Source: Octopus vulgaris (Eukaryota). From it: a stretch of DNA of 64,000 nt. The notes under the pieces are model-generated. The model saw only the letters and a program-made list of their open reading frames with translations, made no database searches and was not told the origin of the DNA. Of this stretch, positions 53,633 to 63,946 are shown in pieces; the stretch's first letter is position 1; the number at the start of each line of letters is the position of its first letter. Position numbers and translations under genes: made by a program. Location of the stretch: contig OX597823.1 of the NCBI GenBank assembly GCA_951406725.2, positions 107,818,001-107,882,000 on the forward strand. The letters run 5' to 3'.

Positions 53633-53636
<4 letters not shown>

Positions 53637-53743
53637 GGCCCTTCTGGTGACGTCGATGATCGCCTGGGGCTAAATGCATCAGTAACACCAACACCACCCC
53701 GCCCTGTCCCTAGCCACATTCAGATGGCTGATCCCCCTTATGT

Positions 53744-53745
<2 letters not shown>
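53633..53745 (+). mobile_element. Internal fragment of the 63.4-kb hammerhead repeat family
   Basis: Near-identical to 63474-63586; flanked by (TA)n on both sides. Confidence 0.85.
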
Positions 53746-58660: not shown

Positions 58661-58882
58661 CTGTTGCTAAACTCATAAACACACACATATACACATCAAT
58701 AATGATGACAGCTTAACAATATTTAACAACGGCAACATGAAGATCAGCAACAACAGACAGAATTTAAAAAGTAGTAGTAATAATACGAGTAACTGTGACA
58801 GAATTTGCAAACCATAGCTACAGCAGTAGTAACTCCGATAGAAACCCTCGTGACAGCGACAAAAATCCATCCTCCACTCCTT

Positions 58883-58935
<53 letters not shown>

Positions 58936-59586
58936 GAAAAGGAATTGCTCTTTTCCCCGGGAAACACAAACATAAATACTCGCACATAGAGAAGAGATAG
59001 CGTAGGAAGTTCTTGACAGACCGAGCGCGTGATCTGAGATGCTTTCGCATTTACTGTGTCCACTGACTTGATGTTGGTGTACATGGAAATGATCCTGTCT
59101 GTAGTAAGGAGACCGAAATCTGCTGTCTTGAGGCAGTCACCAAGTAACAACAGTCGACCCTGCCGAAAACTTTCAACATGGAGTGGAGATTGTCCAATGA
59201 AACGCGTCCCACCTACATGAAGTGAAAAAGTAGATGCAGTGATGGCGGAGTGGTTATGGAATTCACTTCATAGCCACGAGCTCTCGGTTCGTTCCCTAGG
59301 CATATTGGGCAATGTTTCATCTTGCATAAATCTTATGTTGACGGACAGTGTATAGAAGCCCGTCGGGTGGACTTCCTGCAATTCAAACATTCATCTTCGT
59401 TGCACTGATTCATCCCGGGGAAAAGAGCAATTCATTTTCTTTGTGTGTGTGTGTGTGTGTGTGTGTGTTAAGGATTTCTGTTGAATGATCAATGTTACTC
59501 TGCACTCTATAATTACACACATACATATATTCACTTATATATAAGCGTATATGCATATGCATATGTATATATATATATATATATAT

Positions 59587-60150
59587 ATCGTGAAGTATAT
59601 TTGCCACTTAAATGTAGCTAACCCCTAAGGGTGGATGCTACTGTAGCATGAAGCCCTAGGAGGACATCTCCTCCAGCTGGCTATTGACACACTTTCTGTG
59701 CCCTAACAATATTTGCAAAGGGAAGCCATCTTTCCCGTCTACACACGGACTCGAGTTTCTGGGTATTGACCCGTCATCAGCGGGCGACAATCACTAGTTG
59801 TCGATGAAAAGTAGGCCTCCCCTTACAAATGTATATCCTTTTTCCAGTGACGAAAAGTCACTGATATCGAAAAAATGTAAACAAACAATTATAAATCTCT
59901 GAGCGAGGTATAGACAGTAGCTATAGAGTCCGTGTGTATCATAGGTTGAAAACGGGAAAGATGACTTCCATTTGCAAATACTGATAGCGCACAGAAAGTG
60001 TGTCAATAACCAGCTGGAGGAGATGTCCTCCTAGGGCTACAAGCTACAGTAGCATCCAACCTTAGGGGTTAGCCACATTTAAGTGGCAAATATACTTCAC
60101 GATGTGTTACAGCTACTGTCTATACCTCGCTCAGAGATTTACTATTGCTT
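59587..60150. mobile_element. Retrozyme-like repeat family B: minus-strand unit (59587-59925) joined head-to-head to a plus-strand partial unit (59926-60150)
   Basis: Long inverted repeat; circularly permuted ~355-nt monomer; hammerhead on the minus strand; (TA)n flanks. Confidence 0.8.
59741..59785 (-). ncRNA. Minimal type I hammerhead ribozyme
   Basis: Minus strand: cccg-CTGATGA-c gggt caat accc a-GAAA-C tcga G-TC-cgtgtg, with palindromic stem III actcgagt. Confidence 0.75.
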
Positions 60151-63385: not shown

Positions 63386-63939
63386 CGATCCCCTCGAAAC
63401 CGGTCCGTGTGTAGCATCCGTATCTTCGGGGAGGCTGATCTCCCTTTACAGGCTAGCAAGGACACCGTGATGGTGTCGGCTCTCCTGGTGACGTCTATAG
63501 TCGCCTGGGGCTAAATGCATCAGTAACACCCCCACCACCCCGCCCTGTCCCTAGCCACATTCAGATGGCTGGTCCCGCTTATATTACAGAGCAGTTACTG
63601 TTTATACCTCGCTTAGAGATTTATTATTGTTATCGAACAGATTTTCGACGCCAGTGACTGTGTTTACAGTGAAAATCTATATAATTCTAGCCTGTAGAGG
63701 AAGTCCCTCAACGAAGAACGGTGCTTGCCATGCGCTGACGAGAGGCGACCACCTCGAAACCGGTCCGTGTGTAGTATCCGTATCTTCGGGGAGGCTGATC
63801 TCCCTTTACAGGCTAGCAAGGACACCGTGATGGTGTCGGCTCTCCTGGTGAAGTCTATAGTCACCTGGGGCTAAATGCATCAGTAACACCCCCACCACCC
63901 CGCCCTGTCCCTAGCCACATTCAGATGGCTGGTCCCGCT

Positions 63940-63946
<7 letters not shown>
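63386..63946 (+). mobile_element. Retrozyme-like repeat family A: ~1.55 tandem copies of a 360-bp unit
   Basis: cctcgaaaccggtccgtgtgtag recurs at 63392 and 63752 (period 360). The repeated ~190 bp are nearly identical and the array ends in (TA)n. Confidence 0.88.
63729..63771 (+). ncRNA. Minimal type I hammerhead ribozyme, predicted cleavage after C63765
   Basis: catgcg-CTGACGA-gagg cgacca cctc-GAAA-C cg G-TC-cgtgtg. Canonical core, 6-bp stem I including GU pairs, 4-bp stem II, palindromic accggt stem III. Confidence 0.88.

What the first reader, a model, noticed from the sequence alone, without database searches (positions are those of the whole stretch)
63515..63660. Unassigned conserved RNA domain opposite the hammerhead in both families
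Seen: the best primary-sequence conservation between families lies outside the ribozyme. A has gttactgtttatacctcgcttagagatttattattg and B has gctactgtctatacctcgctcagagatttactattg, followed by ttttcga..cagtgac in both. It includes a compensated helix: cagtaAc (63521-63527)/gTtactg (63594-63600) in A versus acagtaGc (60046-60053)/gCtactgt (60112-60119) in B. There is also a ctc-gctYa-gag hairpin. I cannot match it to twister, HDV-like or hairpin ribozyme consensus. Inference: it could be an RT-recruitment or priming signal, an internal promoter, or an undescribed catalytic or ligation motif.
Basis: partly seen in the sequence, partly recalled or inferred. Interest (0 to 1): 0.72.

Follow-up and report, generated by a model that had tools for sequence, protein, structure and literature searches.

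The report
Reverse-transcription start domain of retrozyme circles
The conserved stretch is a folded RNA region in a small hammerhead-bearing repeat where nearly all genomic insertions end, at two fixed points, so it is likely the site where a Penelope-type retrotransposon enzyme grips the RNA and starts copying it into DNA.

Summary
The block and its compensated helix are real. Families A and B belong to one lineage of 353-364-nt type I hammerhead retrozymes with at least 14,000 motif matches in this genome.

Helix P1 holds in 76 of 77 cells across 11 subfamily representatives, with two-sided changes at 5 of 7 pairs. This includes a divergent family outside the training set.

The domain is where insertions end. 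231 of 242 3' ends fall at two sites, window 63584-63588 and 63627-63633; none falls at the hammerhead cut. Of 103 inverted insertions, 93 have one end at each site. Autonomous Penelope-like elements (PLEs) here show the same rule, 29 of 29. That is the known PLE 'tail', shown in vitro to lie between two internal reverse-transcription starts (PMC11167929).

So the domain is likely the PLE enzyme's docking and start site; promoter and second-ribozyme readings are unlikely.

Against: no sampled autonomous PLE carries it; across seven families it is barely more conserved than the hammerhead region; the youngest A copies are not predicted to favour P1. The scan earlier noted Penelope-type ends on other DNA.

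The parts
63387..63946 (+). Family A retrozyme insertion: about 1.55 tandem 360-nt units, 5' truncated, 3' end at site 1 (63946) running into (TA)n
63476..63513 (+). Hairpin P0; its 3' side carries the near-invariant CCTGGGGCTA (63504-63513)
63521..63527 (+). P1 5' strand (CAGTAAC)
63552..63571 (+). Hairpin P2 (gcca/tggc core)
   Evidence: pair probability 0.93-1.00 in sense-strand circle folds
63584..63588 (+). Site 1: first fixed 3' end of insertions (unit 192-196), 5-9 nt before the P1 3' strand; inferred reverse-transcription start
63587..63633 (+). 'Tail' between the two sites (42-47 nt in A): P1 3' strand, P3 hairpin, GAGATTTA
63594..63600 (+). P1 3' strand (GTTACTG)
63604..63623 (+). 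Hairpin P3 (ctc-N5-gag) and invariant GAGATTTA (63616-63623)
63627..63633 (+). Site 2: second fixed 3' end of insertions (unit 235-241); inferred second reverse-transcription start
63641..63675 (+). Conserved ttttcga..cagtgac and hairpin P4, 3' of site 2; P4 resembles P1 in sequence
63722..63781 (+). Type I hammerhead: CTGACGA 63735-63741, stem II gagg/cctc, GAAA 63756-63759, palindromic stem III, predicted cut after 63765; 180 nt from cut to site 1
   Evidence: not detected by Rfam
59587..59925 (-). Family B inverted insertion, minus arm; outer end at site 1 (59587) against (TA)n; hammerhead core at 59780-59748
59926..60150 (+). Family B inverted insertion, plus arm with the full domain (60030-60150); outer end at site 2 against (TA)n
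53633..53745 (+). Short older A-type fragment in (TA)n, ending at site 1

Best explanation
The domain is a covarying RNA structure in a hammerhead retrozyme that contains the two fixed points where its genomic insertions end, and it likely serves as the docking and start site for the reverse transcriptase-endonuclease of a Penelope-like element (PLE) acting in trans. SHOWN: a tandem unit with a type I hammerhead motif; helices P1-P3 kept by compensatory change; two fixed 3' ends at a constant distance from P1; one end at each site in inverted insertions; (TA)n targets or 9-15-bp target duplications; insertions that run through the hammerhead cut site for up to several units. INFERRED: (1) multimeric transcripts are cut by a double hammerhead and circularised, or stay uncut; (2) a PLE protein binds the P0-P1-P3-P4 region; (3) its GIY-YIG nuclease nicks AT-rich DNA on both strands; (4) one nicked strand primes cDNA at site 1 and the other at site 2, probably by two subunits of a dimer on one RNA; (5) synthesis runs round the circle or multimer and the two cDNAs join, giving a head-to-head insertion with the tail at one end only, or one cDNA alone completes, giving a simple insertion ending at either site.
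For: Ends: 231 of 242 outer 3' ends lie in two windows that cover 17% of the unit; 0 at the hammerhead cut; 0 at the unit's internal TATATA run. Inverted insertions: 81 of 88 have one end at each site (wide windows) and 12 of 15 in family H. Family H was found by the model outside its training set, has four compensatory changes in P1, and ends at the predicted places. Family A alone, whose query fixed neither end: 21 of 23. Autonomous elements with long ORFs in the same genome: 17 of 17, 2 of 2 and 10 of 10 inverted insertions have one end at each of two sites. PMC11167929 (main text read): a purified PLE protein nicks and extends both strands of AT-rich DNA, starts at two internal RNA sites whose interval is the tail, needs RNA 3' of the first start site, and is predicted to be a dimer. 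Structure: P1 98.7% paired, 5 of 7 pairs with two-sided change, 0 of 500 shuffles as high; RNAalifold finds P1 unprompted. Opposite arms of one insertion differ less (1.2% young, 1.5% old) than separate loci (2.2%, 4.2%).
Against: No sampled autonomous PLE carries the domain: model searches of loci from three Neptune-like families, an old second group and a 980-1090-aa group gave only independent retrozyme insertions or E above 0.2, so the partner is unidentified. The small hairpin around site 1 is no better than chance (22-78% of shuffles do as well), so the 'AC-rich stem loop' parallel is not established. In young and mid-age A units P1 is predicted at median probability 0.06 (9 of 37 above 0.5; median cost 2.6 kcal/mol), and the isolated A domain folds no better than shuffles (z 0.16). 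Three inverted insertions use the same site twice (L132, L197, L124) and 7 of 103 have one end elsewhere. P2 and P3 show little covariation (1 of 4 and 0 of 5 pairs). Most variants at positions covered by both arms sit in one arm only (85 versus 23 in young copies). Tails in C and H (about 55-58 nt) are longer than the published 30-40 bp.
Confidence: 0.8

Rival explanations
1. The ends are PLE start sites, but they are set by short local sequence; the helices are kept for another purpose such as folding, stability or ligation of the RNA circle.
For: The four autonomous families show two ends with unrelated tail sequences and no P1-like helix; P1 is disfavoured in the youngest, most recently active A copies.
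Against: Site 1 keeps a 5-9-nt distance to P1 across families whose sequence at the site is unrelated; the alignment from P2 to GAGATTTA is almost gap-free.
Confidence: 0.1
2. The conserved block is an internal DNA promoter that drives multimeric transcription.
For: CCTGGGGCTA and GAGATTTA are conserved as sequence; tandem units need some promoter (inference); internal promoters in salamander satellite 2 are recalled, not checked (listing gave no usable paper).
Against: Compensatory changes in P1 mean RNA pairing; no exact A box in any of 8 units, an exact B box in 1 and an exact octamer in 1; no tRNA-derived part; a promoter does not explain fixed insertion ends.
Confidence: 0.04
3. The domain is a second ribozyme or a nuclease target that cuts the RNA at sites 1 and 2, and reverse transcription simply starts at those RNA 3' ends.
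For: A multi-helix junction with invariant unpaired bases; no Rfam family; cutting would also give fixed ends.
Against: Sequence at site 1 is not conserved between families; ends spread over 5-7 nt with sub-sites; autonomous PLEs with unrelated sequence show the same two-end rule; in PMC11167929 initiation is internal to the RNA 3' end. Rfam also misses the hammerhead here, so its silence weighs little either way.
Confidence: 0.04
4. The repeat is mobilised by a LINE, SINE-fashion, from its RNA 3' end, or spreads as DNA.
For: RT-bearing non-PLE ORFs exist in the genome (L074).
Against: No 3' end at the hammerhead cut (0 of 242); no poly(A) or simple-repeat tail in family C, whose ends are precise and flanked by target duplications; the two-end, one-each pattern is PLE-type.
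Confidence: 0.02

Closest known systems
Animal non-LTR retrozymes (Cervera and de la Pena 2020, PMC7229834: passages and Discussion read; Li, Clavereau and Pollet 2026 preprint, 10.64898/2026.07.22.740005: parts 1-3 of 5 read)
   Same: Short tandem units with a type I hammerhead, no coding capacity, target duplications longer than 4 bp; proposed to be mobilised by PLEs, possibly from circular RNA.
   Different: In what I read, the PLE link rests on co-occurrence, shared hammerheads and pLTR homology, and priming is left open. Neither maps insertion ends or describes a structured start domain. Here no pLTR homology was found, but the integration signature itself is PLE-type.
PLE 'tail' and internal initiation by Poseidon of Anolis (Frangieh et al. 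2024, PMC11167929: parts 1-2 of 4 read; supplementary figures not seen)
   Same: Two internal start sites bracketing the tail; AT-rich targets; both strands nicked and extended; hammerhead upstream of the start sites; RNA 3' of the first site needed.
   Different: That element is autonomous and its sites lie in the ORF. It reports no difference in start site between strands and no covarying multi-helix domain. Here the element is non-coding and tandem, cut-to-site-1 distance is 173-180 nt in 7 of 8 units, and the two ends of one insertion are coupled.
Inverted pLTR insertions with a tail at one end (Arkhipova et al. 2013, PMC3846280; Craig et al. 2021, PMC8557442: passages read)
   Same: [quoted passage not shown]
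   Different: Described qualitatively for ORF-bearing PLEs and attributed to nuclease resolution or self-priming. Here it is counted (93 of 103; 29 of 29) and found in non-coding retrozymes with 42-58-nt tails.
Metazoan type I hammerheads with palindromic helix III (Cervera and de la Pena 2014, PMC4209133: passages read)
   Same: 4-bp helix II, 1-2-bp helix III with palindromic loop suited to dimers; U3-A8 core variant.
   Different: This concerns the ribozyme, not the domain in question.

Membership tests
Animal non-LTR retrozyme | Type I hammerhead motif in each unit | tested here: met
   Core, stem II and stem III read in 8 of 8 representative units; H copy L400 has a changed core letter. 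Rfam did not detect it.
Animal non-LTR retrozyme | Short tandem units of a few hundred bases | tested here: met
   Units of 351-364 nt, arrays of several units.
Animal non-LTR retrozyme | No coding capacity | tested here: met
   A 360-nt unit cannot hold an RT; tblastn with a PLE protein listed no hit in the window.
Animal non-LTR retrozyme | Target duplications longer than 4 bp | tested here: met
   9-15 bp where the target is not a microsatellite, e.g. L002 13, L008 12, L116 15, L198 14.
Animal non-LTR retrozyme | Self-cleavage and circular RNA in cells | not testable with these tools
   No RNA holder on record; contigs only.
PLE tail / RT start region | Insertions end at two fixed nearby sites | tested here: met
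   231 of 242 ends; family H 42 of 46.
PLE tail / RT start region | Inverted insertions carry the tail at one end only | tested here: met
   93 of 103.
PLE tail / RT start region | AT-rich or microsatellite targets | tested here: met
   (TA)n flanks in most A, B and H loci; family C mostly in non-microsatellite, AT-rich sites.
PLE tail / RT start region | Sequence or structure shared with the pLTR of an autonomous PLE | tested here: not met
   No match in five sampled PLE-type groups; sampling of the genome's PLE families is incomplete.
PLE tail / RT start region | Start site in an AC-rich stem-loop | tested here: inconclusive
   3-4-bp hairpins surround site 1 in 9 of 9 units, but 22-78% of shuffles do as well.
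PLE tail / RT start region | PLE protein starts cDNA synthesis at these sites | not testable with these tools
   Needs the in vitro assay.
Known small ribozymes and other Rfam families | Match to an Rfam covariance model | tested here: not met
   0 hits at gathering score in the window; no hit inside the domain at E up to 10 other than simple-repeat noise beside it or at E up to 1 in three other families.
Pol III or snRNA-type internal promoter | A box, B box or octamer shared across families | tested here: not met
   no tRNA gene. Motif consensus strings were recalled.

The most novel reading that the evidence does not exclude
The domain is a retrozyme-specific RNA module, absent from the autonomous elements, that captures a dimeric PLE enzyme on a circular RNA and presents two start sites 42-58 nt apart, one to each subunit. 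Both nicked DNA strands are then primed on the same circle and copied rolling-circle fashion in one event. It would be a portable insertion tag for circular RNA and the mechanistic origin of the one-ended PLE tail.
Probability: 0.35. Interest if true: 0.8.

Novelty: new variant of a known kind. Interest (0 to 1): 0.6.

Why it matters
How animal retrozyme RNAs are primed, and by which enzyme, is left open in the papers read. This domain gives nucleotide-level start sites and a covarying structure to mutate, in a genome that also holds several recently active PLE families to test as partners. The strict one-end-each rule, in parasites and autonomous elements alike, constrains the PLE integration mechanism: the two strands are not primed independently. 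If the structure is the docking site, it is a compact RNA tag for PLE-based DNA insertion.

Tried and rejected
Rfam: nothing for the domain, and nothing for the hammerhead either.

Expression: no RNA holder listed; four runs guessed as RNA were contigs only and were not used as evidence.

Autonomous partner: searched by GIY-YIG family and four protein queries, then blastn and model R1 on the fetched loci. Model hits beside PLE ORFs (L077, L085, L174, L194, L307, L354) read as separate insertions. The model could not be run over the whole genome, so the search is a sample. A loose likeness between the 781-aa family's tail (CTCG..CGAG hairpin) and the retrozyme tail was seen by eye and not tested. 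A 12.6-bit hit at the 3' end of the 980-1090-aa group (E 1.4) is not significant.

Hairpin around site 1: rejected as evidence.

One search gave P1 probability 0.00 for family D through an indexing slip; one search gives 0.87.

Family C first looked like a fixed foldback element; variable centres and a tandem copy (L094) showed it is the same kind of unit.

Two decayed copies (L194, L209 minus) were left out of alignment A3. In A3 the 5' strand of P2 of family H is misaligned.

Bacterial promoter scan is not relevant to this genome. No match in viral contigs. The organism was not determined; 'octopus' in the literature searches was a guess.

Full report
OBSERVATION. The quoted strands and blocks are in the sequence at the stated places. 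Family A occupies 63387-63946 as about 1.55 units of 360 nt; family B is one inverted insertion, 59587-59925 on the minus strand joined to 59926-60150 on the plus strand; a third fragment lies at 53633-53745. Rfam has no family for any of it, the hammerhead included. The genome is 2.8 Gb and microsatellite-rich; I did not determine the organism.

THE LINEAGE. Searches of the own genome returned A, B, a third family C met by chance and, by pattern, further subfamilies. Full units are 351-364 nt and align end to end. All 8 representative units carry a type I hammerhead motif, mostly with a palindromic stem III, 173-180 nt before site 1 in 7 of 8 (157 in a copy with a deletion). The two halves of the domain match 14,055 and 2,225 times against 9 and 0 for controls. 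Between A and B the tail is the most alike region, 0.77 against 0.62 for the hammerhead region. Over seven families the lead is small: tail 0.65, P0 0.68, hammerhead region 0.62, extended stem I arms 0.39-0.47.

STRUCTURE. RNAalifold on A, B and C found P1 unprompted, with two compensated pairs. A covariance model built on these three families then found a divergent family H at E 1e-6, whose P1 reads CGGTGGT/ACCACCG: four two-sided changes. With one row per subfamily, P1 is paired in 76 of 77 cells and 5 of 7 pairs change on both sides; 0 of 500 shuffles reach this, a control that ignores relatedness. P2 and P3 are mostly invariant and say little. Whole-circle folds give P1 a probability of 0.85-0.98 in six representative families, 0.02 in the window's A copy and 0.01 in a C copy with a damaged tail. 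Among 37 young and mid-age A units the median is 0.06 and forcing P1 costs a median 2.6 kcal/mol; among 10 older units the median is 0.74. So P1 is well supported by evolution but not by energy in the youngest A copies.

WHERE INSERTIONS END. I mapped the outer ends of insertions at loci (overlapping duplicate loci removed). Of 242 3' ends, 115 lie at site 1 (unit 179-199) and 116 at site 2 (225-263); these windows cover 17% of the unit. None lies at the hammerhead cut or at the internal TATATA run. In A the peaks are 192-196 and 235-241, window 63584-63588 and 63627-63633. Of 88 head-to-head insertions, 81 have one end at each site, 3 use one site twice and 4 have an end elsewhere. I widened the windows by hand after seeing that C's site 2 lies at 247-256; with the script's narrower windows the count is 67 of 88 with 2 same-site cases and 19 with an end outside. 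Family H, a prediction test, gave 42 of 46 ends at the two equivalent sites and 12 of 15 inverted insertions with one of each. Together 93 of 96 insertions with both ends on sites are mixed (p 2e-24 for independent equal choice). Ascertainment: the B query ended at site 1, the C and H queries at site 2, and the pattern required the tail. The A query fixed neither end and gives 21 of 23 (p about 3e-5, my arithmetic). Two further long A arrays spanning two loci each are also mixed. Target duplications of 9-15 bp appear where the target is not (TA)n. Opposite arms are more alike than separate loci, and some locus-private variants are in every piece of both arms; this fits one source but does not separate one RNA molecule from one source locus.

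AUTONOMOUS ELEMENTS. The genome holds recently active elements with RT and GIY-YIG domains: a 781-aa family and a 775-aa family, a third 775-aa family, and a 980-1090-aa group with a hammerhead motif that Pfam does not name and that aligns weakly to PLE RT motifs. 'Neptune-like' is my label from a recalled zinc-finger feature. All four end at two sites in (TA)n, with tails of about 38, 32, 37 and 117 nt. Their inverted insertions are mixed in 17 of 17, 2 of 2 and 10 of 10 cases (none was scored for the 781-aa family). None carries the domain.

MECHANISM. Frangieh et al. (PMC11167929, parts 1-2 of 4 read) show that a purified PLE protein nicks and extends both strands of AT-rich DNA, starts at two internal sites of its RNA, that the interval is the genomic tail, that RNA 3' of the first site is required, and that the protein is a predicted dimer. 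The retrozyme's ends, targets and inversions match this. The conserved block is the tail with its flanking helices, and conservation continues 3' of site 2 into sequence that is not copied into the insertion end, as expected of an anchor (inference). I therefore read the domain as the PLE enzyme's docking and start region (0.8). That the ends are RT starts is inferred by analogy; that the helices bind the protein is inferred from constant spacing; the dimer model for the one-each rule is the least tested step.

RIVALS. Local sequence may set the starts while the helices serve the RNA circle (0.1). A promoter (0.04) does not explain covariation or ends, and no shared promoter box was found. A second ribozyme (0.04) would need conserved sequence at the cut, which site 1 lacks. 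LINE-type or DNA spread (0.02) does not fit the ends.

WHAT IS KNOWN. Retrozymes as PLE parasites were proposed by Cervera and de la Pena (PMC7229834; passages and Discussion) and supported by distribution and pLTR phylogeny in a 2026 preprint (parts 1-3 of 5). The tail at one end of inverted insertions is described for ORF-bearing PLEs (PMC3846280 and PMC8557442, passages). The hammerhead type and its U3-A8 variant are known (PMC4209133, passages). Six literature searches listed no paper that maps retrozyme insertion ends or describes this structure; I saw only listings for papers not named above. Earlier notes of this scan report Penelope-type ends on other DNA and nothing like this sequence or from this genome.

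VERDICT. A real, covarying RNA domain with a strong functional assignment from end mapping; a new variant of a known kind. Interest 0.6: the parts of the mechanism are known, but the start sites and structure make retrozyme priming directly testable, and the one-each rule is a quantitative constraint on PLE integration.

Noticed in passing
L126, L186, L209, L071-L076: Hammerhead core variants fixed by subfamily: U3-A8 in older A copies and in the 781-aa PLE's 3' end, U3 with G8 in family D. U3-A8 is a known variant (PMC4209133).
   Followed up: partly
window 63759-63764 and homologous places: Stem III is a palindrome whose sequence changes by family while staying palindromic (A, D, E, B, F, most C), as expected for double hammerheads; family H has a longer non-palindromic stem III.
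   Followed up: partly
window 63653-63671: Hairpin P4 repeats the P1 sequence (cagtgac with a gtcactg-like partner), so its 5' strand is complementary to the P1 3' strand; a strand swap is possible on paper.
   Followed up: no
L353-L372: A recently active PLE-type group with 980-1090-aa asparagine-rich ORFs, no Pfam hit, a hammerhead motif and an unusually long tail of about 117 nt.
   Followed up: partly
L071, L241, L273: Three recently active RT-GIY-YIG families (781, 775, 775 aa), about 45% identical where compared, all targeting (TA)n.
   Followed up: partly
L167 (G000:C1:11168332-11169075): Seven tandem 119-bp copies of the 3' part of the domain plus flanking (TA)n, without hammerhead; looks like local duplication after insertion.
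   Followed up: no
L197:9620-9861: A clear exception: a near-perfect foldback insertion with both ends at site 1.
   Followed up: partly
L354:5797-6290 and L280:1480-1700: Two more divergent domain variants with their own P1 spellings.
   Followed up: partly
window 63504-63517 with 63620-63624: The conserved (C)TAAA after GGGG could pair with the TTTA after GAGA and close a three-way junction of P1 and P3; family I has an extra base on both sides. Seen by eye only.
   Followed up: no
window 58830-58960 and 59400-59470: An inverted pair of (CA)n-containing segments brackets about 450 bp just upstream of family B.
   Followed up: no
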